DNA of 64,000 nt from an uncultured Thermoanaerobaculia bacterium (GTDB lineage: Bacteria; Acidobacteriota; Thermoanaerobaculia; Gp7-AA8): contig CAZLGP010000055.1 of the NCBI GenBank assembly GCA_964558905.1, positions 10,650 through 74,649 on the forward strand, read 5' to 3'. The notes under the pieces are model-generated. The model was not told where the DNA came from. It did no database searches and saw nothing but the letters and a program-made list of their open reading frames with translations. A program made the position numbers and the translations under genes. Of this stretch, positions 5,265-63,412 are shown one piece after another; positions within the stretch are counted from its first letter, which is position 1, and each line of letters begins with the position of its first letter.

Positions 5265-5392
5265 TTGACAGTTGGCAGTTGGCAGTCGGCAGTTGGCAGG
5301 AGCCCCCCGCCCAACTACCTGCCAACTACGGGGGCGGGAGGGTCTCCTGCCAACTGTCAACTGTCAACTGCCAACCGCCAACCTATAATCTC
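5265..5392. repeat. inverted repeat built from tandem CAGTTGGCAG-type units
   Basis: Left arm GTTGACAGTTGGCAGTTGGCAGTCGGCAGTTGGCAGG. Right arm CCTGCCAACTGTCAACTGTCAACTGCCAACCGCCAACC. GC-rich palindromic spacer between them. Confidence 0.75.
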
Positions 5393-5395
5393 CCC

Positions 5396-6082
5396 ATGAG
5401 CGACGACTTCGGCACTATCAGCGCCCGGCGCGGCGATCGTGCGAAAGAGATCGAGGTTCTGCGCAAGCATCGCGAATCGCTCGTGAAGATGCTCGAGGAC
5501 GTCGACGCGCAGCTCCGCGAGCTCGAGATTTTCGACACCCCCGGCGCAAGGCCGCTCGTGACGACGCCGGACTATGAAGAGCCGGGGGTGGCGCAGGCAG
5601 GCAGCGGTCTGCGCGTCCTTCTGATCATCGGCGCAGCCCTGCTCGCGCTGGTGCTCATCGCGTGGCTCATCTGGCGCGCGAGCTCCGATCGGCCTGCCGC
5701 GACGGGCACGGTTGCCGAGGAAACCGTCACGGACGCAACAACGCCCGCGACGATCACGGAAGCGCCTGAGATCGAGGCGCTCACCGTCACGCCTTCGTCG
5801 CGCGACTACGGGCTCGTTCGGAAGGGTACGCGCGTGACGCGGCAGTACGAGGTTGCGAACAACACCGAGGAGCCGATCTCCATCACTGTGGCCCGCTCAG
5901 CCTGCCGCTGCCTCTACTACGAGCACGCGCCGGTCATCCCACCGATGGCGAAGGACTCCGTGACGGTGACGGTCGACGGCGCGAAGGCGAAAGCGGGGAC
6001 GCTGCGCGAGTCAATCCGCGTGACGGCGAAATCCGACCCATCCGTTGGAACATCGTTCGACGTAATCGCAACCGTCCGGTGA
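5396..6082 (+). CDS. membrane-anchored protein with DUF1573-like C-terminal domain (tentative)
   Basis: Internal ATG at 5396 chosen because the upstream part of ORF 5135..6082 lies in the repeat and overlaps the previous gene. Coiled-coil N-terminus, one transmembrane helix, C-terminal SACRCLYYEHAPVIPP resembling the DUF1573 SCGCT motif. Confidence 0.4.
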   Translation: MSDDFGTISARRGDRAKEIEVLRKHRESLVKMLEDVDAQLRELEIFDTPGARPLVTTPDYEEPGVAQAGSGLRVLLIIGAALLALVLIAWLIWRASSDRPAATGTVAEETVTDATTPATITEAPEIEALTVTPSSRDYGLVRKGTRVTRQYEVANNTEEPISITVARSACRCLYYEHAPVIPPMAKDSVTVTVDGAKAKAGTLRESIRVTAKSDPSVGTSFDVIATVR

Positions 6083-6120
6083 CATTCGGCGGAACACGGT
6101 TACCGAACGGCCGTGTTCTA

Positions 6121-7404
6121 ATGCGCGCCGTGAAGCGACCCCTCGGGTTTTTACTCGTATTCCTCGTGTGCTCAACAGTTTCCGGGCAGGACGCACCGCT
6201 GACACTCGAGCGGGCGGTGACCCTAGCCCTGGAGCGGAACGAGCGCGCCGCGATCGCCGATACGACGGTCGAGGCCGCCGAGGCGCGCGTGAGCCGCGCC
6301 CGCACCGCGTTCTTCCCCCGCGTCGATATCCTCGGCAACTGGCGCACCGACTATCCGGATCCCACCGACCGCACCCTCTCGACCTCCGCCCTCCTCACCC
6401 AGCCGATCTTCGATGCGCGCGTGTTCCCGTTTTTCCGCCAGGCGCGCTATCAGCGCGACGCCGCTCGTTTCGGCGCCGACGAGAGCAAACGGCTCCTTGG
6501 ATTCGACGCGGCGGTGGTATTCCTCAACACGCTCAGCTTCGAGCAGGTCGAGCTTGCCGCCGGGCGCCGCCGCGATTTCGCGCAGAGGAACCTCGAAGAT
6601 GTCCGCGCACGTTTCGAGGCCGGACTCGTCAGCTCGAACGACGTGACCCGCGCGGAGCTCGAGCTCGCGACCGCCGTGCGTGGCGTCGCCGAGGCGGCGG
6701 GCAACGTCCAGGCGGCGCGCGTCGATCTCGAGAATCTTCTGAAGACCGACATCGACGGACCTCTTGCGCGCCCCACGGCTCTCCTCGAAGCGGCCGCCAC
6801 GCCACCGGCGACGGACGTCCCGACCGCCCAGCAGCGTCGTGGAGACATCGCCGCGGAGCGGGCGAGCGTCGAGGCATTGCGTGCGTTCGCCGACGAGCCG
6901 CGCGCGCGCTTCTTCCCTTCCGTCGGGCTGAGCGCCCAGACGCGCAACATCAACGACGGTCCGATCACCTCGCGCGAGCAGGACGGCTTCGTCGGCCTCA
7001 CGTTCGCGTGGCCGGTTCTCGACGCCGGCGTGCGCGGCGCGGAGCGGCGCGAGCGCGAGGCGCTCGTGCGCGGCGCCGAGCTGGAGCTCGAGGCGTCGCT
7101 CCGCGGCGTCGAGCGGGAGCTCGCCAGCGCCGCGGTGCGGTTGAGCACCGAACATGCTGCGCTTCGCGAAGCGACGGCGGCCGTCCGCGCCGCGCGCAAA
7201 AACGCGGAAGAGACGACGATCCTCTATCGCGAGGGCCTCGCGAGCGCACTCGAGCTCGCCGACGCAACGCAGCAACTCTTCGAGGCCGAAGTGGCGGAGG
7301 CGACGGCCACGTATCGCATGGCCCTCGCGTACCTGTCGTTACGCGAGGCAAGCGGTGATGGCCCCGCCGGCGTTGCAGGCGCCGCGGGCGCTGGTGAAAG
7401 GTAG
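6121..7404 (+). CDS. TolC-family outer membrane efflux protein
   Basis: Signal peptide MRAVKRPLGFLLVFLVCSTVSG. Two TolC-like repeats rich in Leu/Ala/Arg. First gene of a TolC-MFP-RND operon. Confidence 0.8.
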   Translation: MRAVKRPLGFLLVFLVCSTVSGQDAPLTLERAVTLALERNERAAIADTTVEAAEARVSRARTAFFPRVDILGNWRTDYPDPTDRTLSTSALLTQPIFDARVFPFFRQARYQRDAARFGADESKRLLGFDAAVVFLNTLSFEQVELAAGRRRDFAQRNLEDVRARFEAGLVSSNDVTRAELELATAVRGVAEAAGNVQAARVDLENLLKTDIDGPLARPTALLEAAATPPATDVPTAQQRRGDIAAERASVEALRAFADEPRARFFPSVGLSAQTRNINDGPITSREQDGFVGLTFAWPVLDAGVRGAERREREALVRGAELELEASLRGVERELASAAVRLSTEHAALREATAAVRAARKNAEETTILYREGLASALELADATQQLFEAEVAEATATYRMALAYLSLREASGDGPAGVAGAAGAGER

Positions 7405-7432
7405 AAGAGAAAAGGTGAAAGAGAAAAACATC

Positions 7433-8566
7433 ATGCGCAGCGCGAAGCGGTCCCCCGTCTCCACTTTTCTCTTTTCCCTTTTCTCTTTGACCTTCGTGTC
7501 GTTCGTGTCTCTGACCTTCGTGTCCTGCTCCAAGGGCGAAGCCGAGGCAAGGGGCGGCCCCGGCAGCCGGAAGAGCATGGAGTTCCCGGTCGAGGTGAAG
7601 CCGGTCGAGTCGCGGCGTGTCGAGTACACCGTGACCGCCGTCGGCTCTCTCGACGCGTTCGAGCGTGTCGCTGTCACGGCGCGGGTCGCGGGCGCCGTCG
7701 AGCGCGTCAACTTCCGCGAGGGCCAGCTGATCAATCCGGGGCAGGCGCTCGTGGAGATCGAGCCGGAGCGGTACCGCCTCGCCGTCGCCGCCGCCGAGGC
7801 CACGCTGGAGAAGGCGGGCGCGGCGCAGGGCGAGGCGCAGGCAGGCTACTCGCGGCGTCAGGCCGCGAGCGAGAAGAACCCGGGACTGATTCGCGGCGAA
7901 GAGATCGAGACCTGGCGGACGAGAGTCCAGAGCACCGCGGCCGAGGTGTCGCAGGCGCAGGCGGCGCTCGCGCAGGCAAAGCTCAATCTGCGCGACGCCT
8001 TCGTGCGCGCGCCGGTGGCGGGGATCATCCAGACCCGCACGGTCGAGACGGGGCAGTACGTTCCGGTCGGGACCGTGCTCGCGACGCTCATGCGCCGGGA
8101 TCCGCTGCTGCTGCGTTTCCAGGTTCCGGAGCAGGACGCGCTGCCGCTGCGCACGGGCATGATCGTCCGGTTCAACGTCGCCGAAGGGGAGACGCAGCAC
8201 GAGGCGCGCGTCACGCACGTTGCGGCCGCCGCCAGCCAGGCCTCGCGCATGGTCGATGTCACCGCGAACGTGCTCAACGCGAACCGTCCCGATCTGCGGC
8301 CCGGCGCCTTCGCCCGCGTCACCGTCCCGATCGCATCCTCGCGCGAGGCCCCGGTCATCCCGCAGACCGCCATCAGACCGAGTGAGAAAGGTTTCCTCGC
8401 CTACACAGTGGAAGGTGGCGTGGCGCGCCAGCGCATCCTTACATTGGGGATGCGCACGGCCGACGGACAGGTGGAAGTGAAACAGGGGCTCACGCCCGGG
8501 GAAACGCTCGTGATTCGCGGCGCGGAAGCGCTGCGGGATGGCGCGAAGGTGAAGGTCACGCAGTAG
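7433..8566 (+). CDS. efflux RND periplasmic adaptor (membrane fusion protein, HlyD family)
   Basis: ATG at 7433 preceded by AAAGGTGAAAGAG. Lipoprotein-like signal peptide ending VSCSKG. Coiled-coil and beta-barrel MFP regions. Signal-peptide DNA carries a short tandem repeat CTTTGACCTTCGTGTC. Confidence 0.85.
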   Translation: MRSAKRSPVSTFLFSLFSLTFVSFVSLTFVSCSKGEAEARGGPGSRKSMEFPVEVKPVESRRVEYTVTAVGSLDAFERVAVTARVAGAVERVNFREGQLINPGQALVEIEPERYRLAVAAAEATLEKAGAAQGEAQAGYSRRQAASEKNPGLIRGEEIETWRTRVQSTAAEVSQAQAALAQAKLNLRDAFVRAPVAGIIQTRTVETGQYVPVGTVLATLMRRDPLLLRFQVPEQDALPLRTGMIVRFNVAEGETQHEARVTHVAAAASQASRMVDVTANVLNANRPDLRPGAFARVTVPIASSREAPVIPQTAIRPSEKGFLAYTVEGGVARQRILTLGMRTADGQVEVKQGLTPGETLVIRGAEALRDGAKVKVTQ

Positions 8567-8570
8567 AACG

Positions 8571-8666
8571 GAGTCGTCTCAAAGTCTCAAAGTCTCAAAG
8601 TCTCAACGACCCCGCAACGAACCTCTTTGAGACTTTGCGACTTTGAGACTTTGAGACTCCGAGTCG
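8571..8666. repeat. inverted array of tandem AAAGTCTC octamers
   Basis: (GTCTCAAA)x3-4 followed by the inverted (TTTGAGAC)x3-4, between the MFP stop and the RND start. Confidence 0.8.
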
Positions 8667-8676
8667 AGGCAAGCCC

Positions 8677-11766: not shown

Positions 11767-11805
11767 GGCTTCGCAGGCTCTGAGGGCGCGCGTAGAATCC
11801 GTCCG

Positions 11806-12423: not shown

Positions 12424-12424
12424 C

Positions 12425-12525
12425 GGCAGAATGTCAGGCGCGTTGCGCCGCTCGAAGCCCGTAACCCGCGAGTGCATCCGTGACGTGCCGTAAGGCGGAG
12501 CAACCAGCGCCGCCGGCCGTGCCGG
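12425..12525. repeat. ~95-bp dispersed GC-rich element (family sharing GAGCAACCAGCGCCGCCGGCCGTGCCGGCC)
   Basis: Aligns with the tandem copies at 53441-53531 and 53531-53622. Sits exactly between two gene 3' ends. Confidence 0.65.
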
Positions 12526-12526
12526 C

Positions 12527-24521: not shown

Positions 24522-24699
24522 CTAGTGTCGTGTCCAGGTTGAAGACGTGGGTTGTTTGCGAGCGCCGGTGGGTTGGATGCAAGCCGCCGCGACGCAGGCG
24601 ATGCGGGACATCGTCGAGGAGCGGCGGCGCAGCAGACGACCCGCCGCCGCCGCAAAGAACCCACGGTTTCAACCTGGACACGACACTAGTGTCGTGTCA
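24522..24699. repeat. MITE-like element with 32-bp terminal inverted repeats and a GACACGACACTAGTGTCGTGTC palindrome
   Basis: CTAGTGTCGTGTCCAGGTTGAAGACGTGGGTT at 24522-24553 versus its reverse complement at 24657-24688. The same TAGTGTCGTGTC module recurs at 35941 and 36185. Confidence 0.75.
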
Positions 24700-24978: not shown

Positions 24979-25226
24979 GCGGTGACCTTGCACATCGCGT
25001 TGAGCAAACAGGTGATCTGGGCCTGTCGGCGCGACGCGGTGTGTCCATCGCCACACCTTTCCGCAGTTTTTCCACCCGAGCTGCGGAACGAACCAGCACA
25101 GGTCGGCACGGCCGGAGCGCTGGTTGCCCCGCCAACCGCCAACCGCCAGCCTCCAACCGAATGAGGCGGAGCAACCAGCGCGGCCCGTCGTGCCGGCTGG
25201 CCCGCTTCCTGCGCCAGCACCGCGTG

Positions 25227-27104: not shown

Positions 27105-27160
27105 GCGGGTTCGTGATGCGAGGGGAGTGATTGTGATGAGTGATGAGCGATGAGTGATGA
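27105..27160. repeat. tandem (GTGATGAG)n array
   Basis: gtgatgcgaggggagtgattgtgatgagtgatgagcgatgagtgatgagtgatgagggg, direct copies only. Confidence 0.8.
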
Positions 27161-27218
27161 GTGATGAGGGGGCTGCCGGGTCCGGCATGGCCAGCGGCTT
27201 GCAGGCGGTCGCATTGCT

Positions 27219-28119: not shown

Positions 28120-28170
28120 GCGGGCCGGCCGTCGACGCTGGTTGCTTCGGCTTGCGGCGCGCCACTGGGG

Positions 28171-28268
28171 GTCTCGAGTCGTCGAGTCGTCGAGTCGTCG
28201 AGTCTCAGAACAGTCTCACAGATGGAGGTTGTGAATGTCTCCGAGACTCTGAGACTCTGAGACTCGCG
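28171..28268. repeat. inverted array of tandem GAGTCGTC / GAGTCTCA octamers
   Basis: (CGAGTCGT)x4 then GAGTCTCAGAACAGTCTCACAG, spacer, then (GAGACTCT)x3. Followed by a partial GCAACCAGCG element at 28275-28320. Confidence 0.8.
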
Positions 28269-28327
28269 CGTGACGGTGCCGCAAGGCAGAGCAACCAGCG
28301 CTGCGCAGTCTGCGCCAGAATGCGGGG

Positions 28328-35943: not shown

Positions 35944-36213
35944 TGTCGTGTCACTAGCCGTTGCTCCATGAGGGTGTCATCCTGAGCCGCGTAGACGGCG
36001 AAGGACCTTCTCCGTTGCGTGCTGGAAGGTCCTTCGCTGTCTACGCAGCTGCTAATGACATCGAAGATGTCATTCCCCTCAACGAGGCCGGCAAAACAAG
36101 ACGCAAAGCGTGCCCAAGGCTTGGCCAACAAGCGCCGCCGGCCGTGCCGGCTCAGGATGACACCGGTTTCTGCCGCGCAGGCTCCTAGTGTCGTGTCCAG
36201 GCTGACACTAGTG
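35941..36213. repeat. composite repeat region (modules TAGTGTCGTGTC, ATGACATCGAAGATGTCAT, GCGCCGCCGGCCGTGCCGGC, GGCTCAGGATGACACCGGTTTCTGCCGCGCAGGCTCC)
   Basis: Shares ordered modules, some inverted, with 29395-29640 and with the 24522-24699 element. Confidence 0.65.
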
Positions 36214-37506: not shown

Positions 37507-37869
37507 GAAACCTCCCTAGGTGTGTTCTGTTCGCCGATTGTCGAACCTCAGCGTAGCAGGTCATGACGGCTATAGGTATGGTTGCATGGAGATCCGGCGA
37601 GACGTAGCGTCGCAGCGGGTCGACGTGTCGAGGACGCCCTGCCGTCTCCGCCACTGATCCGAAAGAGCCGCGGAGCGCCGGCTTCCAGCCGGCCGCTACG
37701 CCGCCTTCCAGGCGGCCCGGGTCGGGAGCTTGCGCCCAGCTTGTGCGATCCCGGCGAGTCGCATGCCGCGTCCAGAATATCCAAACTCCAGACCCCCGGC
37801 AGAGCCCCGGACAGAGCCCTCAATGGCGTTAACTTTAGGCTCGGGCACCTGCGCCGGAGGCGCGTAAAG

Positions 37870-38037
37870 AGGGTAGCCGGTGGCGAGCGCCAATGCGCCG
37901 CCACCGGAAACGTGGGCAACCGCGAAGGATCCGCCCCGGAGGGGCGGCAGAGAACCTCTCCCGCCCCTCCGGGGCGGATTTCCTGCACGCCGTCTTCTTC
38001 CGGTGGCGGCGCTCCGCGCTCGCCACCGGCTACCCTC
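37870..38037. repeat. element with 20-bp perfect terminal inverted repeats (GGGTAGCCGGTGGCGAGCGC)
   Basis: 37872-37891 versus 38016-38035. Inner palindromes CCGCCCCGGAGGGGCGG and CCGCCCCTCCGGGGCGG. Confidence 0.7.
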
Positions 38038-38152
38038 TGAGCGGCCGGCTGCAGGTGACCGGGTGAGCGAAAGGCGACTCTGCCGCCGGCTACGCGAGGC
38101 TGATCCCCGGGACCGATCGACGGCGCTATACCTGACGTATACTGCCGTTCGG

Positions 38153-50287: not shown

Positions 50288-50333
50288 AATTTACCGGGTG
50301 CTGAGTGCTGAGTGCTGAGTGCTGGATGCTGAG
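50288..50333. repeat. tandem (GTGCTGAG)n array
   Basis: GGTGCTGAGTGCTGAGTGCTGAGTGCTGGATGCTGAGTCAG, abutting the stop of the membrane gene. Confidence 0.8.
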
Positions 50334-51320
50334 TCAGTACTTCCCCGTCGCGCCCGCTCCGCCGAATTGCCCGCCGTCCTCCGGCTTCGGCTCGAATTCT
50401 GCGCGGGGTAGAGCGACAGTGGCGACGGTCTCGAGCTCGTCGTCGAAGCTGGTGAGCCTTGCCGGCGTGCCGACGATGCCGGTGATCCTGTCGCGCAGGG
50501 CGCGCGATGCGAGCCAGGAGCCTCCAAGGAGGAGCGCTCCGCCGATGGCGAGCTTCGCTTCGACGGGGAGGGCGATCGTCCGCGCGAGCTCGATGGACGC
50601 GATGCCGACTCCGATCCCACCGGCGAGGAAGAGCGCGTGGTAGCGGTGGCGAATGGCGAGGAAGAGCGTCACGGCGCCGTACGCGAAGTAGAGCGAGATG
50701 GTGAGGTAGCGCCATTCGGCGTCGGCCTGCGCGTAGCCGACGACGGGAAGCAGGATGGCGATGGCGATGCCGAGGAGCTCGTTCGACGGACGGCGCCACG
50801 TGCGCAGCAGCGCGAACGCGGCGACGACGGCGATGACCAGCGCGGCGACGACGCCGAGGTCGAAACGCTTCTCGAAGTACACGGTGATGAAGCCGGCGGC
50901 GAGCGCGCCGAAGAGGGGATTGCGCACGCGCGCGCCCGGGATGGCCGCACCGGCCGCGAGCACCAGGAGCGACTCCGGCGTGCCTCGGCTCGGCAGCTCG
51001 CTGATCAGCGAGTACAGGCCGCCGATCCAGAGCGCCTCTTCGACGCCCGTCCACCACCAGCGCCACTTGCGGATCAAGGACTCGCCCAGCGCGATGGCGA
51101 TGACGCCGGTGGCGATGCCGGGGTAGGAGATGTCGATCTGATCGAGGAAGAAATAAAAACCGAGAACGCCGACGACGGTGAGGACAAAGAGCGTGGCTCG
51201 CAGAAGAATGCCGTGGGTCCGGTGGGGCACCTTCGCGGCTTCATCGAGGACGGACGCGGCGGCCGGGCCGGAAGCGCGGACCCCCGACAGCATCAGCGCG
51301 CGCTCGTGCTCGAGCTTCAT
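50334..51320 (-). CDS. polytopic membrane protein of unknown function (328 aa)
   Basis: Start at internal ATG 51320 (MKLEHERALM...); the upstream ORF part is Arg-rich noise. Eight to ten transmembrane segments. ATGA overlap with the upstream gene. Confidence 0.5.
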   Translation of the reverse strand: MKLEHERALMLSGVRASGPAAASVLDEAAKVPHRTHGILLRATLFVLTVVGVLGFYFFLDQIDISYPGIATGVIAIALGESLIRKWRWWWTGVEEALWIGGLYSLISELPSRGTPESLLVLAAGAAIPGARVRNPLFGALAAGFITVYFEKRFDLGVVAALVIAVVAAFALLRTWRRPSNELLGIAIAILLPVVGYAQADAEWRYLTISLYFAYGAVTLFLAIRHRYHALFLAGGIGVGIASIELARTIALPVEAKLAIGGALLLGGSWLASRALRDRITGIVGTPARLTSFDDELETVATVALPRAEFEPKPEDGGQFGGAGATGKY

Positions 51321-52240
51321 TTCGGCTCCTTGAAGCGCGCGTGCAGGAAGAGCAGGCCCGCGACGGCGGCGATCATCGAGACGAGGATGACCAGGAAGGC
51401 CAGGGCCTCGAATCGATCCACGAGCTCGAGGAGCATCCAGTCGGCGGCGATGATGCCGTAGACGACGCCGTACAGGACGAACGGCTCGTGCCGCGTGCGG
51501 AAGCCCCAAACGATCACCGCGATGGCGATGGCAATCGTGAGGAGCCCCCCCAGCGCAACCTGATCGTCCATGAGCGAGAGGCCGCCGATGAGCGCGGCGT
51601 TGGCGGCGAAGTGCTCGAAGGTGCGGGCGAAGGAGACGGCCGGCGGTTGACGGTTGGCGGATGGCGGGAGCTTTGAGTCGATCGCGCGCCAGGCGATGAG
51701 AAGCGCGGCGAGCTCGAACGCGGGGAGGGCGACATCCACGAAGCCGCGGTCTTTGTCGAAGCCGAGGTATCCGCCGAGGGCGGTGATGGCGAGGGAGAGC
51801 AACATGCGCGAGCGGTATGCGTACGCGGCCGCGGTGTGGACGACAGCGAGGAGGAGCAGGTGGCGCTTCCACGCGTCGTCGAAGAGGTGGAACTGCGCCT
51901 CGATGAAGGCAACGTCGGCGCTGACGAGCAGCGCGCCGAGGAGGAGGATGTAGTCGTCGACGACGCTCGCCCGCGCGCGGCGCCACCAGGTCCACCCGTA
52001 GCACGCGGCCGCGGCGACGCCGATGAGGATCGCCAGCGCCAGCGGTCCGATGCGATCGAGGTTGTCCTTGAGAAGCACGCCCGCCGCCCCGGCAAGGAGG
52101 GTCGCGCCCAGCCATCCGGCGATGCGCAGCTCGGGATAGACGGAGAAGACCTCACGTCGCTCGCGCGCGATCAGCGCGTTCGTCGCCGCATCGCCGAGAC
52201 GCGGGCGGAGAGCTTCGAGCTCGGGCTCGAGGGAGAACAC
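51317..52240 (-). CDS. polytopic membrane protein of unknown function (~307 aa)
   Basis: GTG start at 52240 chosen because the upstream ORF residues (PHPAPRTPHPAPRT) are a translation of the tandem repeats. Confidence 0.45.
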   Translation of the reverse strand: MFSLEPELEALRPRLGDAATNALIARERREVFSVYPELRIAGWLGATLLAGAAGVLLKDNLDRIGPLALAILIGVAAAACYGWTWWRRARASVVDDYILLLGALLVSADVAFIEAQFHLFDDAWKRHLLLLAVVHTAAAYAYRSRMLLSLAITALGGYLGFDKDRGFVDVALPAFELAALLIAWRAIDSKLPPSANRQPPAVSFARTFEHFAANAALIGGLSLMDDQVALGGLLTIAIAIAVIVWGFRTRHEPFVLYGVVYGIIAADWMLLELVDRFEALAFLVILVSMIAAVAGLLFLHARFKEPK

Positions 52241-52244
52241 AGGG

Positions 52245-52480
52245 CCATCATAGTGCTGAGTCCTGAGTGCTGAGTCCTGAGTTCTGAGTCCTGGGTGCTG
52301 GGTGCTGGGTGCGGGGTGCGGGGTGCGGGGTGCGGGGTGCGGGGTGCGGGGTGCGGGGTGCGGGGTAAAAGGTGAAAGGCGTTTTCCAGGGGCGAAGCTA
52401 CTGCAGGACAGGCGGTGCTGGCGCTGACTTCTAGCACTCAGCACTCAGCACTCAGCACTCAGCACTCAGCACTCCCCGCG
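52245..52480. repeat. composite tandem-repeat region: (GTGCTGAGTCCTGAGT)n, (GGGTGCTG)3, (GGGGTGCG)8, then inverted (CTCAGCAC)5
   Basis: Read directly. The CTCAGCAC array is the inverse of the (GTGCTGAG)n array at 50288. Confidence 0.85.
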
Positions 52481-53249: not shown

Positions 53250-53622
53250 GGGGCGCTCTGTCGCCCGCTACGCGGGCTGGATTGGACGCAATCGCAAGTC
53301 CCCCGGCTGAAAGCCGGGGGCTATTTCCTCTTGCCCGCTACGCGGGCGCATTGACCGCTTCGTGGGGGCACATTGACCGCTTCGTGGGCCTATTGACCGC
53401 CGTGAGTCTGCGCGATTGAAGCGTCAGGCACGTTGCGCCGCCCGAACCGCGACCGTCGAATTATCGGAGACGTGCCGTAAGGCGGTGCAACCAGCGATGC
53501 CCGCCGAGCCGGCTAGTGTGCGCGAAGGGGCGTCAGGCGGTTGCGCCGCCCGAAGCCGCGACCGTCGAATTTATCGGAGACGTGCCGTGAGGCGGAGTAA
53601 CCAGCGATGCCCGCCGAGCCGG
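53250..53622. repeat. repeat cluster: 2x CCCGCTACGCGGGC, 2x CATTGACCGCTTCGTGGG, and two tandem copies of the ~90-bp GC-rich element
   Basis: 53441-53531 and 53531-53622 are about 90% identical direct repeats. They are related to 12425-12525. Confidence 0.8.
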
Positions 53623-54576
53623 CTAGACGAGATACGCTACTGCGAAGCCGATCTGCGCGGCCATCATCATCAGATACATGTGGCGCCAGCTGGGGTGGTT
53701 CTCGGTGGCCGTGAGCTCGTCGGGATTGCGGACGATCAGCCAGACCGTGTACGCGCCCCACAGCGCGAGGGTGAATCCGAGGATGGTGATGAAGGTGGCG
53801 TTGCCGGTGAGGATCCCGGTGCTCGCACCGATGGGCATGAGCAGCCAGGGGATCACGAAGAAGGGGGAGATCATCCAGGCCGCCTTGCGCACGCCGAAGG
53901 CGATGGGCAGGGTGCGGCAGCCGCCGGCGGCGTCGCCTTTCATGTCGCTGAAGTCTTTCGTCGACGCGGCGCCGAGGAGGAAGAGCATGAAGATCAGACC
54001 GATGAACCACGGCTCGGCTTCGAGCGCGCGCGCGACCATCGTCCAGCCGGCGACCTTCAGCAGCAATCCCCGGGGGATGGCGATGGTCAGGTTCGCGCCG
54101 ATGGGATGCGCCTTCGTGCGGCCGAGGGCGGGAACGGAGTAGACGAAGGTCGACACCAGGGCGATGACGTAGATGAAGAAACACTCGTGCCACGCCAGCG
54201 GCGCGAAGAGCTTCTGCGTCCAGGTGGTGTACGGATAAACGACGACGAGCCACGTAGGGATCGTCCCCAGTGCATAGAGGATCCAGGTGAAGATCCACGC
54301 CCCGCGAGTGGAGACCTGGCCCGCCACGAGCGGGCGATTGGGCTTGTTGATGCGGTCGATCTCGAGGTCGTAGATCTGATTGAGGGTGTTGTTCGCGGCA
54401 TTGAGGAACGCCGCGCAGAGGGAGCCAAGAGCGACGGTGAGGAGGACGGAGGTGGTGACCGCGCGGCTGGGATCGGGATTGTGAGCGGAGCCCCACGCGC
54501 AGACGGCGCCGGAGATGATGCCGAGGAGCGGCGGCAGGAGAGTGAAGGGTCGGGCGAGGGTGAGGTAGGCACGCAA
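53623..54576 (-). CDS. UbiA-family prenyltransferase
   Basis: NTLNQIYDLEIDRINKPNRPL (NxxxDxxxD motif). Nine transmembrane segments. Confidence 0.85.
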   Translation of the reverse strand: MRAYLTLARPFTLLPPLLGIISGAVCAWGSAHNPDPSRAVTTSVLLTVALGSLCAAFLNAANNTLNQIYDLEIDRINKPNRPLVAGQVSTRGAWIFTWILYALGTIPTWLVVVYPYTTWTQKLFAPLAWHECFFIYVIALVSTFVYSVPALGRTKAHPIGANLTIAIPRGLLLKVAGWTMVARALEAEPWFIGLIFMLFLLGAASTKDFSDMKGDAAGGCRTLPIAFGVRKAAWMISPFFVIPWLLMPIGASTGILTGNATFITILGFTLALWGAYTVWLIVRNPDELTATENHPSWRHMYLMMMAAQIGFAVAYLV

Positions 54577-54595
54577 GCGGCCGGTAGTGTACTGC

Positions 54596-54722
54596 TCTGA
54601 ACCCTGAGCGGGAGCGAAGGGTCATGGGTGCCCCCTCGTTGCGTGGCCGCGCGGTCGCATCGCGTGGCACCGACCTCGTGAGGGCTCCCTTGACCCTTCG
54701 CTCCGCTCAGGGTTCGGGGGGG
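54596..54722. repeat. MITE-like element with GACCCTTCGCTCCGCTCAGGG arms
   Basis: CCCTGAGCGGGAGCGAAGGGTCA ... TGACCCTTCGCTCCGCTCAGGG. Same family as 61440-61680. Confidence 0.8.
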
Positions 54723-54754
54723 CGCCAACCGCCAACCGGTAGTAGACTCCTTCC

Positions 54755-55585
54755 GTGCCAGCACCACGCAAAGCCGCCCCTGAGACCGTCACCGAGGACG
54801 CCGATTACGGCAAGCCACCTTCCCAACGCATGAGCGAGAGCAAGATCGCGCTCTTCATCGACTTCGAGAACATCGCCATCGGCGTGATGGACGCGAAGTA
54901 CAAGAAATTCGAGATCAACCTGGTCCTGGAGCGCCTCCTGGAGAAGGGGAAGCTCGTCGTCAAGCGCGCCTACAGCGACTGGGACAAGTTCCCGGACTAC
55001 AAGCGCGAGTTGCACGAAGCGGCCATCGAGATGATCGAGATTCCCGGCCGCGGCTACTCGGGCAAGAACTCCGCGGACATCCGCATGGCCGTCGACGCGA
55101 TGGACATGTGCTGGTCCAAGGACCACATCGACCTCTTCGTCATCGCCTCCGGCGACTCCGACTTCTCGCCGCTGGTCTCGAAACTGAAGGAGAACGACAA
55201 GTACGTGATCGGCTGCGGCGTGAAGAACTCGTCGAGCAACCTGCTGATCGACAACTGCGACGAGTTCATCTTCTACGAGGACCTCGTCCGCGGCGTGGCC
55301 AAGGCTCCGAAGGTCGCGTTCCAGGACAAGAAGAAGGCCGAGGTGTTCAAGCTCCTCATCGACTCGATCAAGGCCCTCATGCGCGAGAACAAAGAGATCC
55401 TCTGGGGATCGATGGTCAAGCAGACCATGCAGCGCAAGAAGCCGACGTTCAACGAGGAGTACTACGGCTACAACACCTTCAGCGACCTGCTGGAAGACGC
55501 GCAGAGCAACGACATCATCAAGATCAAGAAGGACCAGAAGTCGGGGTCTTACGTGATCACGGGGTTCGCGCAGTCGGCCGTTTGA
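54755..55585 (+). CDS. NYN-domain (LabA-like) protein with C-terminal OST-HTH/LOTUS-like domain
   Basis: IALFIDFENIAIG...RAYSDW...VIASGDSDFSPLV acidic residues. Lower GC than its surroundings. The start may be the ATG at 54830. Confidence 0.75.
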   Translation: MPAPRKAAPETVTEDADYGKPPSQRMSESKIALFIDFENIAIGVMDAKYKKFEINLVLERLLEKGKLVVKRAYSDWDKFPDYKRELHEAAIEMIEIPGRGYSGKNSADIRMAVDAMDMCWSKDHIDLFVIASGDSDFSPLVSKLKENDKYVIGCGVKNSSSNLLIDNCDEFIFYEDLVRGVAKAPKVAFQDKKKAEVFKLLIDSIKALMRENKEILWGSMVKQTMQRKKPTFNEEYYGYNTFSDLLEDAQSNDIIKIKKDQKSGSYVITGFAQSAV

Positions 55586-55760
55586 GTCGTCGAGTCGCCG
55601 AGTCGTCGAGTCTTTGCGACGTCGCGGCTTCAGGGGTGGAGGCTCATAGGCTCACAGGCTCACAGACGACGACCCTGTGCGACTGTGAGACTGTGAGACT
55701 GAGACTGTGAGACTCCGCGGCGACTCGACGACTCGGCGACTCAAAGACCCGGCGACATAG
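55575..55760. repeat. nested inverted arrays of tandem octamers (GAGTCGTC / GCTCACAG / GTGAGACT / GACTCGAC)
   Basis: Outer arms GAGTCGTCGAGTCGCCGAGTCGTCGAGTC versus GACTCGACGACTCGGCGACTC. Inner arms (GGCTCACA)n versus (TGTGAGAC)n. Confidence 0.85.
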
Positions 55761-55770
55761 AATACGCGCC

Positions 55771-57426: not shown

Positions 57427-57442
57427 CGGCCCGCTGCCATCC

Positions 57443-58879: not shown

Positions 58880-59166
58880 GCTTTTTTCTTCCCGAACATC
58901 CGGAGCATCCGGTCGGTGACGGCGAAGCCGCCCACGACGTTGATCATGGCGAAGACGATGGCCGTGACGCCGAGGATGTTGCTCATGGTCACGTTGCCGG
59001 TGTTGGCCGCGAGAAGCGCTCCGACGATGGTGATGCCGGAGATGGCGTTCGCGCCGGACATGAGCGGCGTGTGGAGCGTCGGCGGGATCTTCGTGATGAT
59101 CTCGAGACCGACGAACATTGCGAGAACGAACAGATAGATGCCGATCAGCAGTGGACCCATGTTCAT
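58876..59166 (-). CDS. pntAB: NAD(P) transhydrogenase alpha subunit part 2 (membrane)
   Basis: 96 aa, three transmembrane segments. ATGA overlap with pntB. Confidence 0.85.
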   Translation of the reverse strand: MNMGPLLIGIYLFVLAMFVGLEIITKIPPTLHTPLMSGANAISGITIVGALLAANTGNVTMSNILGVTAIVFAMINVVGGFAVTDRMLRMFGKKKA

Positions 59167-60302: not shown

Positions 60303-60394
60303 GGCCGGCGAATTCTACCTACTTGCGGAATGGGCGCATGTGACGATGAGGGGCGCCGGAAATCCACGAATCTGCTAGTGCTAGAGCTAGCCCG

Positions 60395-61420
60395 CTAGAA
60401 AAGGTCTCCCTGTTTCCGCGCTGCGCTGAGTGGGTAGCCGAGGTGCTCATAGGCGGTGCGGCTGGCAACGCGCCCGCGGGGGGTGCGTTGGAGAAAGCCG
60501 ATCTGGATGAGGTAGGGCTCGTAGAGGTCCTCGATGGTACCGCGGTCCTCGCCGATCGAAGATGCGAGCGCGTTGAGGCCGACCGGGCCGCCGCCGAAGC
60601 GCTCGATCACGGTGTTCAGGAGCTTGCGGTCGATCTCGTCGAGCCCGTACTCGTCGACTTCGAGCATGTGCAGCGCCTCGCGTGCAATGGCGACGTCGAC
60701 CCGGCCCTCGTGACGCACTTCGGCGAAATCGCGTACGCGGCGCAGCAGTCGGTTGGCGATGCGGGGCGTACCGCGCGAGCGCCGCGCGAGCTCGACCGCG
60801 GCGTCGCGCTCGGTGGGTATGCCGAGGATGTCGGCGGAGCGGCGGACGATGATCGTCAGCGACTCGACGTCGTAGAAGTCGAGGCGGTGGACGATGCCGA
60901 AGCGCGCGCGCAGCGGGGCGGTGAGGAGGCCGGCACGCGTCGTTGCGCCGACGAGGGTGAAGCGCGGCAGCTCGACCTTCAACGTGCGCGCCGCCGGTCC
61001 CTGTCCGATGACGACGTCGACGTGAAAGTCCTCCATCGCCGAGTAGAGGACTTCCTCGACGATGGCCGGCAGGCGGTGGATCTCGTCGATGAACAGCACG
61101 TCGCCGGCTTCGAGGTTCGTGACGATGGCCACGAGGTCGCCCGGCTTCTCGAGCGCGGGACCGGAAGTCGAGCGGAGGCTGGCGTTCATCTCGTTGGCGA
61201 CGATGTTCGCGAGCGTGGTCTTGCCGAGGCCGGGGGGGCCGAACAGGAGGACGTGATCGAGCGCCTCGGCGCGGTTGCGGGCGGCGGTGAGGGAGATCTC
61301 GAGGTTCGCCTTCACCTTGTGCTGACCGATGTACTCGCGCAGCAGTCTGGGGCGGAGGGAGAGCTCGGTCTGGAGGTCGTCCTGGTCGGGAGTTGCGGCG
61401 AGGATGCGCTCGTCGGTCAC
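60395..61420 (-). CDS. ruvB: Holliday junction branch migration helicase RuvB
   Basis: GPPGLGKTT Walker A. DEIHRL. C-terminal winged helix. Confidence 0.95.
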
Positions 61421-61439
61421 GGTCGGCAGTCTAACTCCA

Positions 61440-61680
61440 ACCCCAACTCTTCTAACCCTGAGGAGCGAAGCGACGAAGGGTCAAGGGAGCCCCCGCGCTG
61501 CGTCGGCCGAAGCACTGTGAGGGCTCCGCGGACCCTTCGCTCCGCTCAGGGGTTGCGACGAAGGGTCAAGGGCGCCCCCGCGCTGCATCGGCAACGGCAT
61601 CGAGAGGGCTCCGTTGACCCTTCGCTCCGCTCAGGGGTTATGACGCTGACCCTTCGCTCCGCTCAGGGTTGACCCGACGG
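61440..61680. repeat. two to three tandem MITE-like copies of the GACCCTTCGCTCCGCTCAGGG family
   Basis: CCCTGAGGAGCGAAGCGACGAAGGGTCAAGGGAGCCCCCGCGCTGC...GACCCTTCGCTCCGCTCAGGGG is repeated. The last copy overlaps the 3' end of the kinase CDS. Confidence 0.8.
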
Positions 61681-63286
61681 GGAGTGTCACGACGATGCTC
61701 GTGCCCTCCCCCTCCTGGGAGGTCACGTCGATCTTTCCGCCATGCTCCTGGACGATGCGGTACGAGATGGCCATGCCCAGGCCTGTACCGGAGGGGAAGT
61801 TCGTGCGGAAGGGCTGGAAGATCCGCTGCAGGTCGGCCGGGGACATGCCGCGGCCGTTGTCGGTGAAGATGATTTGGTACGACGAGTCGGCGACGGTCGT
61901 GCGCACCGTGAGGACGCCGCCCTTCGGCATGGCCGCGACGGCGTTGCGGGCGAGATTCCAAAACACCTGGCGGATCTGATCCCCGTCGCCGACGAACGGG
62001 AAGGAGGGCGGATCGATCTCGCGCCGGAGCTCGTGGCTCTCACGGAGCTCGGGCGAGTTCTCGAGGAGATCGAGGGTCTCGGAGAGACTGGCGGCCACAT
62101 CGAACTCCACGGCTCGCTTCTCCTGCGGACGGACGAAGCGGAGGAAGTCGGAGATCGATTTGTTCAGCCGTTCCGATTCCTTCAACACGATGGACATCAG
62201 CCGCTGCTCCTGGGGCGTGAGCGACTGCGACTTCTTCAGCACCTGCACCGACCCGGCGATCGCCGCGAGGGGATTCCGGATCTCGTGCGCGATTCCCGCG
62301 GACAACTCCCCCACCGCCGCCATCCTGTCCTTGAGCCGCACCTCGGCCTCGAGCTTCTTCACGTCGGTCAGATCCTGAAAGATGACCGTGTAGCCGGAGA
62401 AGTGCCCCTCGAGCGTGCTGAGCGGACTGATGGCGAAGCCGAGGCTCCGGCGCTCGCCGTCGGGGTGAACATGATCGCTCTCCCTCCGGAGGATACTGCC
62501 CGTGGACAGATCCACGCGCGCCACCTCCCACTCCTGGGGAGTGAAGAACCCGAGCGCCGTCACATGCCGGCCGAGCGTCGACAGAGCATCCGTGCGGAGG
62601 ATGCTCGCGCCGGCGGGGTTGATGAACGTCGCGGTGCCGGAGGACGAGAGCGTGATCAAGCCGGACGGAATCGAGTCGACGACGTTCTGATTCAGAGCGC
62701 GAAGCTCCGCCAGGTTCTGACGGTTCGCGTCGAGCTCGCGCGCCGTCCGCTGGAGCTGCTCGGAGAGGTATGAGGTGAGCAGGGCCGTGGCATAGAAGCC
62801 GGAGAAGTTCGCGGCCATGTTCAGGTAGAGCCGCGAGGAGGTCCAGGCCACGGGCAGCAGCAGCGTCTGCTCGGGCATCGGAAGCACGCCGTAGTACATG
62901 AGATCGACCAGCGCACCGTAGAAGATCGACGCCGCGGATGCCGCGAGCAGGCCGCCCCGCCGGTAGAGCAGCATCGACGCCGTGATGACGGAGACGAGAT
63001 AGAGGAACGAGAACGGCGAGTCGAGACCTCCGGTGAAGTAGACCAGCAGCGTCTCCACGCCGAGGTCGCCGCCGGTCTGGATGGCGAGATTGAGGTTGCG
63101 CGAGGGGAAGGCGAACGCGAGACCGATGTACACGAGTGTGAGCGCGTAGCTGACGCCCGCGGCCGCGTAGAGGTAGTCGAGAGGAAGAACCTCGCGGATC
63201 GTGTACTGGATGATCAGGGCCGCGAGCAGGAGCGTGGTGACGACCACGACCCGGACGGCGATGAGCATCCGGACGTCATTACTCAT
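61631..63286 (-). CDS. PAS-domain sensor histidine kinase (PilS-like; next to pilC)
   Basis: Multi-transmembrane N-terminus, PAS domain, HisKA (ELSAGIAHEIRNPL), HATPase_c (DNGRGM, GTGLGM). Confidence 0.85.
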   Translation of the reverse strand: MSNDVRMLIAVRVVVVTTLLLAALIIQYTIREVLPLDYLYAAAGVSYALTLVYIGLAFAFPSRNLNLAIQTGGDLGVETLLVYFTGGLDSPFSFLYLVSVITASMLLYRRGGLLAASAASIFYGALVDLMYYGVLPMPEQTLLLPVAWTSSRLYLNMAANFSGFYATALLTSYLSEQLQRTARELDANRQNLAELRALNQNVVDSIPSGLITLSSSGTATFINPAGASILRTDALSTLGRHVTALGFFTPQEWEVARVDLSTGSILRRESDHVHPDGERRSLGFAISPLSTLEGHFSGYTVIFQDLTDVKKLEAEVRLKDRMAAVGELSAGIAHEIRNPLAAIAGSVQVLKKSQSLTPQEQRLMSIVLKESERLNKSISDFLRFVRPQEKRAVEFDVAASLSETLDLLENSPELRESHELRREIDPPSFPFVGDGDQIRQVFWNLARNAVAAMPKGGVLTVRTTVADSSYQIIFTDNGRGMSPADLQRIFQPFRTNFPSGTGLGMAISYRIVQEHGGKIDVTSQEGEGTSIVVTLPVGSTLSGAKGQRHNP

Positions 63287-63289
63287 GGC

Positions 63290-63412
63290 AGTGCTGAGTG
63301 CTGCGTGCTGAGTGCTGAGTGACGCTCCACGCCAGGGCGACCTTCGCGCCTGGGCGGGCGGGACTCAGCACTCGGCACTCAGCACTCAGCACTGCAGGCG
63401 GGCCGGAGCCCG
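63290..63412. repeat. inverted (GTGCTGAG)n arrays flanking a GC-rich palindrome
   Basis: GCAGTGCTGAGTGCTGCGTGCTGAGTGCTGAG...inner palindrome CGCCAGGGCGACCTTCGCGCCTGGGCG...CTCAGCACTCGGCACTCAGCACTCAGCACTGC. Confidence 0.85.

What the first reader, a model, noticed from the sequence alone, without database searches (positions are those of the whole stretch)
5265..63412. Family of intergenic palindromes built from inverted arrays of tandem 7-10-mers, each locus with a different unit
There are at least eight loci: 5265-5392 (CAGTTGGCAG), 8571-8666 (AAAGTCTC), 27105-27160 (GTGATGAG, direct only), 28171-28268 (GAGTCGTC and GAGTCTCA), 50288-50333 and 52245-52480 (GTGCTGAG plus GGGGTGCG), 55575-55760 (nested GAGTCGTC, GGCTCACA, GTGAGACT) and 63290-63412 (GTGCTGAG). 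All share the same plan: n tandem copies of a short unit, a spacer, then the same number of inverted copies. The result is a long hairpin sitting right at gene boundaries. This shared plan with variable units is not a standard REP, BIME or CRISPR layout. It suggests slippage-prone elements that could act as terminators or recombination substrates.
Basis: seen in the sequence. Interest (0 to 1): 0.6.

Follow-up and report, generated by a model that had tools for sequence, protein, structure and literature searches.

The report
Hairpins built from tandem 7/8-mers
About a quarter of the gaps between genes in this soil acidobacterium and 82 relatives hold long hairpins whose two arms are roughly 31-base runs of a repeated 7- or 8-base unit, a known kind of bacterial repeat seen here in a new phylum with more than a hundred different units.

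Summary
The window has 11 intergenic loci with tandem arrays of 7-nt or 8-nt units. There are no 10-mers. Seven loci are inverted pairs that fold into hairpins of -41 to -111 kcal/mol.

The genome is an uncultured Thermoanaerobaculia (Acidobacteriota). The same architecture occurs in all 83 related genomes sampled: 318 arrays, 149 unit types and 94 inverted pairs, at about 1.6 loci per 10 kb. Shuffled sequence gave 3 arrays and 50 kb of E. coli gave none.

Arms are about 31 nt whether the unit is 7 or 8 nt. The 5' arm is usually G-rich. Arms start a median of 4 nt after a stop codon, and none has a U-tract.

At the orthologous pilC-pilS spacer, more than 25 species carry such hairpins built from at least 12 unit families. 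In some lineages the arms are far better conserved than 4-fold codon sites. In others they have been replaced outright.

The closest precedent is the set of inverted GGGAATC heptamer repeats of Xanthomonas. These elements are not REP/BIME, CRISPR, MITEs or canonical terminators, and they did not vary among near-identical contigs.

Best reading: hairpins grown by unit slippage and kept as structured intercistronic RNA. The function is inferred, not shown. This is a new variant of a known kind.

The parts
5263..5382 (+). Locus A. Arms are 5263-5299 (AGTTGGC x5.3) and 5347-5382 (CTGCCAA x5.1), around a GC-rich core stem-loop. The first arm overlaps stop TAG 5262-5264 of the DUF5916 gene. The next ATG is at 5396 (DUF1573 gene).
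   Evidence: MFE -87.1, z -10.5
7397..7494 (+). Locus B. Purine-rich arm 7398-7427 (AAAGGTAAAAGAGA x2.2) and pyrimidine arm 7465-7494. Stop TAG 7402-7404 of the OEP gene lies in arm 1. ATG 7433 of the MFP lipoprotein gene lies in the loop. Arm 2 encodes part of its signal peptide.
   Evidence: MFE -40.7, z -4.4
8569..8663 (+). Locus C. Arms are 8576-8606 (GTCTCAAA x3.9) and 8625-8658 (CTTTGAGA x4.2). It lies between the MFP stop (8566) and the RND pump ATG (8677), so it is inside an operon.
   Evidence: MFE -54.4, z -7.7
25118..25180 (+). C-rich direct array CCGCCAA x4.4 (25129-25159). It ends one base before in-frame ATG 25161 and is bracketed by the inverted motif GCGGRGCAACCAGCG (25118-25132 on the - strand, 25166-25180 on the + strand).
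27125..27168 (.). Locus D. Direct-only array GAGTGAT x6.4 in a divergent spacer. It has no inverted partner and no fold.
   Evidence: z -0.7
28136..28300 (+). Locus E. An outer, non-repetitive inverted repeat (28136-28150 / 28286-28300) encloses the arrays GAGTCGTC x3.9 (28174-28204) and CTCTGAGA x3.4 (28239-28265). The unit order matches locus H.
50298..50334 (-). Locus F. Direct-only array that reads CTCAGCA x5.3 on the - strand. It abuts the stop codon (50334-50336) of a - strand membrane-protein gene and has the same unit as loci G and I.
52252..52474 (-). Locus G. Arm 52433-52474 (AGCACTC x6) pairs with arm 52252-52312 (AGTGCTG/AGTCCTG). The 140-nt loop carries GGGTGCG x10.6 (52293-52366). 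The locus lies between stop 52483 and the GTG start near 52238 of - strand genes.
   Evidence: MFE -93.3
55584..55756 (+). Locus H. Nested hairpin with outer arms GAGTCGTC x3.6 (55584-55612) and CGACTCGA x2.8 (55721-55742), and inner arms AGGCTCAC x3.2 (55640-55665) and CTGTGAGA x5.2 (55675-55714). The first arm overlaps the stop codon of the NYN-LOTUS gene. The next gene starts at 55771.
   Evidence: MFE -101.9, z -6.0
63290..63393 (-). Locus I. Arms are 63363-63393 and 63290-63321 (GAGTGCT x4.4-4.6 on the - strand) around a GC core stem. A small GC hairpin at 63395-63420 follows the pilC (T2SSF) stop at 63428-63430. The conserved PilS ATG (63286-63284) is 3 nt past the second arm.
   Evidence: (MFE -110.8, z -10.7)

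Best explanation
These are chromosomal, vertically inherited, hairpin-forming long simple-sequence repeats, typical of a whole clade of Thermoanaerobaculia (Acidobacteriota).

Each element is an intergenic stem-loop. It often has a short unique GC-rich core. Its stem is extended on both sides by about 31 nt of a tandemly repeated 7- or 8-nt unit.

Inferred origin: units are gained and lost by slipped-strand mispairing within each arm. Because every unit in one arm can pair with every unit in the other, the hairpin survives such changes. Complementarity between arms is kept by selection or by conversion between arms.

Inferred function: the elements are transcribed as part of polycistronic or 3'-terminal mRNA. 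There they act as generic structured spacers, that is, stabilising, processing or attenuating stem-loops. They fill the gap from a stop codon to the next start codon and can stand in for ordinary GC hairpins. They do not act as canonical terminators, contingency loci or mobile elements.
For: Shown:
- Period 7 (251 arrays) and period 8 (67) dominate all tandem repeats in 1.25 Mb from 83 genomes. Shuffled sequence gave 1 and 2.
- There are 149 unit types, and 59% of arrays have an inverted partner.
- 184 of 203 loci are intergenic, occupying about a quarter of spacers.
- Density is constant at 1.4-1.8 loci per 10 kb across RuvB identity 77-100%.
- Arm length has a median of 31 nt for both periods. 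For 7-mers, a peak at 30-33 nt survives background subtraction.
- Arms begin a median of 4 nt after the upstream stop codon.
- At the pilC-pilS spacer of 55 species, a hairpin always fills the gap. It is an array hairpin in more than 25 species (at least 12 unit families). In the others it is a plain GC hairpin, a U-tract terminator or a REP-like palindrome. The conserved PilS ATG lies 0-12 nt past the 3' arm.
- Several array hairpins flank a plain terminator-like core, for example in L069 and L033.
- Plain hairpins in array-free spacers share the bias towards a G-rich 5' arm, 42:16 against 65:10 for arrays.
- Window versus L007: 4-fold sites are 58% identical (43% expected at random), but the arms are about 97% identical and both have 4+4 copies.
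- Unit changes are compensated on both arms: GAGTGCT/AGCACTC, AAGTGCT/AGCACTT (L066), GAGTACT/AGTACTC (L038) and GGGTGCT/AGCACCC (L019).
- Copy number differs between relatives 92-95% identical in DNA.
- Three junctions around the DUF1573-OEP-MFP-RND efflux genes carry such hairpins, two of them inside the OEP-MFP-RND operon.
Against: - Transition mismatches between arms are G.U 43 versus A.C 41 on the sense strand. There is therefore no sign that RNA wobble pairs are preferentially tolerated.
- Sense and antisense folds are equally stable.
- The G-rich 5' arm is a strand-symmetric property, so it does not show which strand matters.
- Loci occur in divergent and convergent spacers roughly in proportion to availability. 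This fits a passive element as well as a functional one.
- About 40% of arrays have no detectable partner.
- There are no expression data.
Confidence: 0.5

Rival explanations
1. They are a neutral by-product. This clade's replication and repair machinery slips in 7-8-nt steps, arrays accumulate wherever they are tolerated (intergenic hairpins), and they have no function of their own.
For: - G.U equals A.C among arm mismatches.
- There are 149 different units.
- Loci occur in all spacer types in proportion to availability.
- Many arrays are unpaired or degenerate.
- Units are replaced outright between close relatives: window, L001 and L005 each have a different unit at about 88% PilS identity.
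- Heptamer over-representation in many bacteria has been ascribed to polymerase slippage (PMC4679880 and PMC4692102, citing Mrazek 2007).
Against: - Arms are conserved far above 4-fold sites, with unchanged copy number, in window, L007 and L010.
- Unit changes are compensated on both arms.
- Arm length peaks sharply at 30-33 nt instead of decaying geometrically.
- There is no copy-number change among near-identical contigs.
- A hairpin is conserved at the same spacer in 55 species.
Confidence: 0.22
2. They are intrinsic transcription terminators or attenuators of a U-tract-independent type used by this high-GC lineage.
For: - The stems are long and very stable and begin directly after stop codons.
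- Canonical stem-plus-T-run terminators are not above chance in the window, so something else may do the job.
- At the pilC-pilS site some species have a canonical terminator instead, and some arrays flank one.
- Arrays share the G-rich 5' arm bias of plain hairpins.
Against: - Only 8 of 188 tails have at least 5 T in 8 nt.
- Hairpins sit inside the OEP-MFP-RND operon, whose genes need co-expression.
- There is no enrichment between convergent genes: 8% of loci against 14% of gaps.
- The next start codon is 0-13 nt beyond the stem, which leaves no room for a promoter.
- From general knowledge, U-tract-less hairpins terminate poorly in tested high-GC bacteria.
Confidence: 0.13
3. They are dispersed by copying: REPIN- or MITE-like non-autonomous elements, or arrays spread by ectopic conversion, possibly with a trans-acting enzyme.
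For: - Distinct loci in one genome share the identical unit 11% of the time, against 1.1% between genomes. The figure is still 8% for loci more than 5 kb apart.
- Loci E and H share the same order of two unit types and similar junctions.
- The size and shape resemble REPINs: two arms of about 31 nt and a loop of about 19 nt.
Against: - Nothing is conserved outside the arrays, and loops and flanks are unrelated.
- No terminal inverted repeat or target duplication is visible.
- At least 10 unit types in 64 kb is too many for enzyme-matched families.
- Orthologous loci are inherited vertically.
- No GTAG/CGTC head is present.
Confidence: 0.07
4. They work at the DNA level, as cruciforms, G-quadruplex/i-motif structures or arrays of protein-binding sites that affect supercoiling, replication or recombination.
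For: - No strand or wobble asymmetry is seen.
- Some units are G4-capable: GGGTGCG x10.6 at 52293-52366, and AGGGCCG or AGGGCGC in L001, L003, L004, L012 and L046.
- The Xanthomonas GGGAATC repeats form G4 structures in vitro (PMC4692102).
Against: - Most units have no G-tract (GAGTGCT, GTCTCAAA, AGCTCTT, GTTGCTG), yet they show the same length of about 4 units.
- The diversity of units argues against a sequence-specific protein.
- The strict stop-to-start placement points to expression rather than to chromosome structure.
Confidence: 0.07
5. They are assembly artefacts from collapsed low-complexity reads.
For: None was found. The only cause for suspicion is that the data are metagenome assemblies.
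Against: - The same architecture appears in 83 genomes from different projects and assemblers. These include long-read MAGs and two complete chromosomes (OY970284.1, OY970380.1).
- Orthologous loci share units between species.
- Identical arrays were assembled independently from six samples.
Confidence: 0.01

Closest known systems
Inverted GGGAATC heptamer SSRs of Xanthomonas campestris and X. axonopodis (Rehm et al. 2015, PMC4692102)
   Same: - Tandem 7-nt units with a strong intergenic bias.
- A clear preference for about four units.
- 70-75 cases per genome of two arrays in convergent orientation that can form stem-loops.
[quoted passage not shown] This is the same handedness seen here.
- Arrays lie between the same genes in related species, with length and sequence variation.
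- They are transcribed, and their function is unknown.
   Different: - Xanthomonas has essentially one unit family (GGGNATC), and the four-unit preference was explained by G-quadruplex formation.
- Here there are 149 unit types, most with no G-tract, in both 7- and 8-nt periods, yet with the same arm length of about 31 nt.
- 59% of arrays are paired.
- The phylum is different.
- Divergent spacers are not avoided here.
Long SSRs of 5-11 nt in prokaryotes (Mrazek et al. 2007, as summarised in PMC4679880 and PMC4692102), and cyanobacterial STRR heptamers (Mazel et al. 1990, from my own knowledge)
   Same: - Heptanucleotide units are the most abundant long-SSR class.
- They are intergenic.
- Polymerase slippage is the proposed origin.
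   Different: - Those surveys describe direct arrays, and Acidobacteria are not singled out.
- The systematic inverted pairing, the stop-to-start placement and the fixed arm length are not part of those descriptions.
TAACTGA direct repeats of marine Beggiatoaceae and some cyanobacteria (MacGregor 2015, PMC4679880)
   Same: Intergenic heptamer arrays of 2-6 copies that most often end 1 nt before a start codon. The C-rich arrays here likewise end 0-15 nt before start codons.
   Different: There is a single unit, the repeats are almost always direct (one inverted case) and the genomes are AT-rich. Horizontal spread was proposed for them.
REP / BIME / REPIN elements
   Same: - Intergenic, transcribed hairpins of about 70-110 nt between co-directional genes.
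- Genome-specific sequence families.
- Proposed roles in mRNA stability.
   Different: - REPs are single conserved imperfect palindromes with a GTAG/CGTC head and a cognate RAYT transposase.
- Here the arms are tandem arrays, many unrelated units coexist and no conserved head is present.
- True REP-like families exist separately in the same window.
Rho-independent terminators
   Same: A stable GC-containing stem just after a stop codon. At one orthologous site the two types replace each other.
   Different: There is no U-tract, the stems are 30-40 bp instead of 5-14 bp, and many lie inside operons.

Membership tests
Long simple-sequence repeats (heptanucleotide class) | Head-to-tail iteration of a 5-11-nt unit, at least 3 copies, above chance | tested here: met
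   251 period-7 and 67 period-8 arrays, against 1 and 2 in shuffles. The window has 12 and 7.
Long simple-sequence repeats (heptanucleotide class) | Units that are not multiples of three are confined to non-coding DNA | tested here: met
   184 of 203 loci are intergenic after correcting over-extended ORF starts.
Xanthomonas-type inverted heptamer SSRs | Two arrays of the same unit in convergent orientation, close together | tested here: met
   94 inverted pairs with a median loop of 19 nt. Window loci A, B, C, G, H and I.
Xanthomonas-type inverted heptamer SSRs | Preference for about four units | tested here: met
   Copies per arm peak at 4-4.5. Length peaks at 30-33 nt.
Xanthomonas-type inverted heptamer SSRs | One G-tract unit (GGGNATC) able to form G-quadruplexes | tested here: not met
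   There are 149 unit types, and the commonest lack GGG. Window units GTGCTGA, GTCTCAAA and GAGTCGTC have no G-tract.
REP / BIME / REPIN | One conserved 20-40-nt imperfect palindrome per family, with a GTAG or CGTC head | tested here: not met
   Arms are tandem arrays that differ between loci, with no shared head.
REP / BIME / REPIN | A cognate RAYT (Y1 transposase) gene in the genome | not testable with these tools
   Only 64 kb of the genome is available. The window ORFs were not all scanned.
Rho-independent terminator | Stem-loop followed within 0-2 nt by a U-tract | tested here: not met
   8 of 188 tails have at least 5 T in 8 nt. No array is listed by the terminator scan.
Rho-independent terminator | Ends transcripts in vivo | not testable with these tools
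   No transcript data are available.
CRISPR array | Repeats of 23-47 nt separated by unique spacers of similar length | tested here: not met
   Units are 7-8 nt and contiguous.
MITE | Terminal inverted repeats, target-site duplication and a conserved body in many copies | tested here: not met
   Only the arrays are shared between loci. Loops and flanks are unrelated.
Phase-variation (contingency) SSR | Copy number varies among closely related strains | tested here: not met
   Six contigs with 0-4 SNPs (3-15 kb each compared) show no indel at any array. The reference locus has 12 tandem-repeat arrays. This is a limited sample from one study.
Phase-variation (contingency) SSR | The repeat lies in an ORF or between promoter elements, so that copy number switches expression | tested here: inconclusive
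   Arrays are outside ORFs. One -35-like hexamer lies in an arm of locus A. Promoters are otherwise unknown.

The most novel reading that the evidence does not exclude
The array hairpins may be an active translational-coupling device. Each stem begins a few bases after a stop codon and ends a few bases before the next start codon, which often has no Shine-Dalgarno sequence. Folding would therefore bring stop and start together. A terminating ribosome that melts the first units would free the G-poor 3' arm, which is almost free of start codons, and could reinitiate there. That would be a bacterial counterpart of ribosome shunting. A stem built of repeats would keep working after slippage because it pairs in any register. 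A second, independent point: arm length is about 31 nt whatever the unit length. This suggests a general ruler, for example the minimum homology needed for recombination. Such a ruler would also explain the four-unit rule in Xanthomonas better than G-quadruplexes do.
Probability: 0.12. Interest if true: 0.8.

Novelty: new variant of a known kind. Interest (0 to 1): 0.55.

Why it matters
Heptamer repeats are known to be over-represented in bacteria, but their cause and role remain open questions.

This clade offers a natural experiment. The same architecture is written with more than a hundred unrelated 7- and 8-nt units: arms of about four units (about 31 nt), inverted pairing and a G-rich 5' arm. 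This separates architecture from sequence. It argues against the G-quadruplex explanation given for Xanthomonas, and it points to a structural or mechanical ruler.

The elements occupy about a quarter of intergenic spacers, which extrapolates to roughly 800-1000 per genome. They probably shape operon expression in an abundant, uncultured group of soil bacteria.

They also mislead gene callers. Several ORFs in the window are over-extended through arrays.

Tried and rejected
- Exact-protein look-ups for two window proteins found nothing, so the window's own genome is not in that collection.
- A metagenome scan for the window-specific start of locus I found no match, so there is no strain-level comparison for the window itself. 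I used the P0045 contigs instead.
- Rfam gave no family at gathering threshold.
- The canonical terminator scan gave nothing above chance and nothing at the arrays.
- The idea that 7- and 8-mers provide stop codons in all three frames was rejected. 30 of 94 5'-arm units contain a stop triplet, against 28.5 expected.
- I first read 'G-rich arm first' as following the direction of transcription. This was wrong. The property is the same on both strands of an inverted repeat, so it carries no directional information. I kept it only as a handedness shared with plain hairpins.
- The wobble test for RNA-level selection was negative, 43 versus 41.
- Array-free spacers show no general G-to-C gradient.
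- Literature searches found no description of these elements in Acidobacteria.


Full report

Reading the eight named stretches shows tandem short units followed by their reverse complement. Tandem Repeats Finder and the inverted-repeat search confirm this.

- The units are 7-mers (AGTTGGC, GTGCTGA, GGGTGCG, GAGTGAT) or 8-mers (GTCTCAAA, GAGTCGTC, CTCTGAGA, AGGCTCAC, CTGTGAGA).
- Two named loci (27125-27168 and 50298-50334) are direct-only.
- Three further loci were missed: 7397-7494, 25129-25159, and the outer inverted repeat around 28136-28300.
- Units are not unique to a locus. GTGCTGA occurs at three loci and GAGTCGTC at two.
- On the transcribed strand the inverted loci fold with MFE of -41 to -111 kcal/mol (z -4.4 to -10.7 for A, B, C, H and I). 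The direct-only loci do not fold.
- The window holds 12 period-7 and 7 period-8 arrays of at least 3 copies. A 50-kb E. coli control analysed the same way holds none.

**2. Whose genome is it, and is this general?**

RuvB (60395-61420, - strand) is 95% identical to RuvB of Thermoanaerobaculia MAGs. A genome scan returned 80 syntenic loci, all from Thermoanaerobaculia/Acidobacteriota MAGs. Two more loci came from exact-protein look-ups.

I ran a census over the window plus these 82 loci, 1.25 Mb in total.

- Arrays of at least 3 copies have period 7 (251) or period 8 (67). Periods 6, 9 and 12 give 6, 22 and 9. A dinucleotide shuffle gives 1 and 2 for periods 7 and 8.
- The 318 arrays use 149 distinct units. 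187 of them (59%) have an inverted array partner within 400 nt.
- They form 203 loci, of which 184 are intergenic once ORF starts over-extended through arrays are trimmed.
- Density is 1.4-1.8 loci per 10 kb in every RuvB-identity bin from 77% to 100%. This includes complete long-read chromosomes.

This rules out an assembly artefact.

**3. Anatomy**

- Arm length has a median of 31 nt for both 7-mers and 8-mers, paired or not.
- With a more sensitive threshold and background subtraction, 7-mer arrays still peak sharply at 30-33 nt. Counts are 117 real against 2 shuffled in that bin, and only 19 at 34-37 nt.
- Loops have a median of 19 nt. Arms begin a median of 4 nt after the upstream stop codon, and 59 of 77 begin within 10 nt of it.
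- The 5' arm is G-rich in 65 of 75 informative pairs. This handedness is identical on both strands, so it says nothing about the direction of transcription.
- Plain hairpins in array-free spacers share the bias, 42:16. Spacers as a whole show no such gradient.
- 3'-arm units almost never contain ATG, GTG or TTG (6 of 94). Stop triplets occur at chance level.
- Only 8 of 188 arm tails have at least 5 T in 8 nt.
- Loci lie in co-directional, divergent and convergent spacers as 81%, 11% and 8%. The corresponding shares of all gaps are 73%, 12.5% and 14%.

**4. Context in the window**

- Pfam identifies a run of four co-directional genes: DUF1573, an outer-membrane efflux protein (OEP), a membrane-fusion protein (MFP) and an RND pump.
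- Array hairpins sit before DUF1573 (locus A), between OEP and MFP (locus B) and between MFP and the RND pump (locus C).
- In locus B the OEP stop codon lies in arm 1, the MFP start codon lies in the loop, and arm 2 encodes part of the lipoprotein signal peptide.
- Locus I fills the spacer between pilC (T2SSF) and pilS. The conserved PilS ATG is 3 nt past the stem.
- Locus H starts within the stop codon of a NYN-LOTUS gene.
- Loci G and F flank a two-gene membrane-protein operon. The boundaries of that operon had to be corrected by frame analysis.

**5. Evolution at one orthologous site**

I extracted the pilC-pilS spacer from 55 species.

- More than 25 species carry an array hairpin. At least 12 unit families are used: GAGTGCT, AGGGCGC, AGGGCCG, AGCTCTT, GAGGATT, GGTGCTG, GAGGCAC, GCCGTTG, GAGTGAT, GTTGCTG, GGGCTCA and GCGAGCA.
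- The other species carry a plain GC hairpin, a canonical U-tract terminator or a REP-like palindrome.
- In L069 and L033 the arrays flank a terminator-like core.
- Related species share unit families. Unit substitutions are matched on the opposite arm, for example in L066, L038 and L019.
- Between the window and L007, 4-fold codon sites of pilS are 58% identical, against a random expectation of 43%. The arms are about 97% identical and both keep 4+4 copies, while the loop has diverged.
- L001 and L005 are closer in protein sequence, yet each carries an unrelated unit.
- Six contigs of one population (0-4 SNPs per 3-15 kb compared) show no array indel.
- A relative 92-95% identical in DNA keeps the unit family GTTCCTCGG but has 5/5 instead of 10/3 copies.

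The arrays therefore change slowly. They are held complementary over long periods and are occasionally replaced wholesale.

**6. Spread within genomes**

- Different loci of one genome share the identical unit in 11% of pairs, against 1.1% between genomes.
- The figure is 21% for loci under 2 kb apart and still 8% beyond 5 kb.
- Loci E and H share the order of two unit types.

Some copying between loci, or a genome-specific preference for certain units, is therefore likely. No mobile-element hallmarks are present.

**7. Mechanism**

Shown:
- The elements are hairpin-capable and inherited.
- Their length is constrained.
- They are placed from a stop codon to the next start codon.
- They can be replaced by ordinary hairpins.
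- They lack U-tracts.

Inferred:
- Unit gain and loss happens by slippage in each arm. A stem made of repeats tolerates this because it pairs in any register.
- Complementarity is kept by selection or by conversion between arms.
- The role is that of structured intercistronic or 3' RNA: stability, processing, attenuation, or shielding naked RNA between ribosomes.

Evidence against an RNA-level role is the equal number of G.U and A.C mismatches (43 versus 41) and the equal stability of the two strands. I therefore keep a neutral-by-product rival at about 0.2.

The shared cap of about 31 nt for 7- and 8-mers suggests a length ruler. One candidate, which is my own inference and untested, is the minimum homology for recombination. 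A one-unit register shift in a 31-nt array leaves 23-24 nt of overlap.

**8. Comparison with known elements**

- The nearest precedent is the GGGAATC heptamer repeats of Xanthomonas. They share the intergenic location, the four-unit preference, 70-75 inverted pairs per genome, the same handedness relative to ORFs, transcription and an unknown function (PMC4692102).
- Heptamers as the dominant class of long SSR, and the slippage hypothesis, go back to Mrazek 2007 as cited in PMC4679880.
- TAACTGA repeats in Beggiatoaceae end 1 nt before start codons.
- No paper describing such elements in Acidobacteria was found.
- New here are the phylum, the diversity of units, the coexistence of 7- and 8-nt periods with one arm length, the predominance of pairing, and the evidence from orthologous sites. 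The first three argue against G-quadruplexes as the general explanation.

**9. Verdict**

This is a real, lineage-wide feature and a new variant of a known kind of repeat. The function is unproven. Interest is moderate (0.55).

Noticed in passing
window 54615-54700 and 61474-61624: A separate REP-like palindrome family, CGAAGGGTCAWGGGWGCCCCC, gives 5 hits against 0.03 expected. One site is an inverted pair upstream of the NYN gene. The other is an 85-nt unit repeated twice between pilS and ruvB.
   Followed up: partly
window 35975-36060 and 36146-36161; L002 8140-8232; L014 pilC-pilS spacer: A palindrome starting GTCATCCYGAGC... occurs in the window. In two relatives it occupies the very spacer that holds an array hairpin in the window, so different hairpin types replace one another at this site.
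   Followed up: partly
window 12495, 25118/25166, 28136/28286, 53482, 53592 and others: The motif GCRGAGCAACCAGCG gives 10 hits against 0.8 expected. Inverted pairs of it bracket the arrays at 25129 and at locus E. It also lies inside the 110-nt x1.9 tandem repeat at 53421-53626.
   Followed up: partly
window 53331-53400: A 20-22-nt direct repeat, TTGACCGCTTCGTGGG, occurs about 3.4 times just upstream of the 110-nt repeat and next to the UbiA-family gene. It could be an operator or iteron-like array.
   Followed up: no
window 5361-5398: A promoter-like site, CTGTCA-17-TATAAT (10 of 12 matches), has its -35 element inside the second arm of locus A and its -10 element ending 6 nt before ATG 5396. 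This suggests a possible leaderless transcript for the DUF1573 gene.
   Followed up: no
window 52293-52366: (GGGTGCG) x10.6, 98% perfect, is the longest array in the window. It is G-quadruplex-capable on the + strand, which is the template strand for the flanking - strand genes, and it sits in the loop of locus G.
   Followed up: no
window 24522-24689; 2503-2599; 37868-38038: Three long non-repetitive inverted repeats: 39-nt arms at 92%, 41-nt arms at 85%, and a perfect 23-nt pair with a nested 24-nt palindrome. None is built of tandem units.
   Followed up: no
window 50334-52444: The two longest ORFs here (50334-52115 and 51317-52444, - strand) are over-extended. Third-position GC shows two adjacent membrane-protein genes, roughly 50334-51316 and 51317-52238. 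The second ORF had run through the arrays of locus G. Arrays can mislead gene callers.
   Followed up: yes
window 51642-51667: GGCGGTT x3.7 lies inside the coding region of the - strand membrane-protein gene. It is one of the few period-7 arrays that appear to be truly coding (17 of 203 loci across the data set).
   Followed up: no
L083 9712-9962 and 11029-11128; L089; L001 11028-11128: The unit family GTTCCTCGG, with a period wobbling between 8 and 10 nt, flanks ruvB on both sides in several relatives. Arrays of the same sense lie 1.1 kb apart and could pair, or recombine, across the gene.
   Followed up: partly
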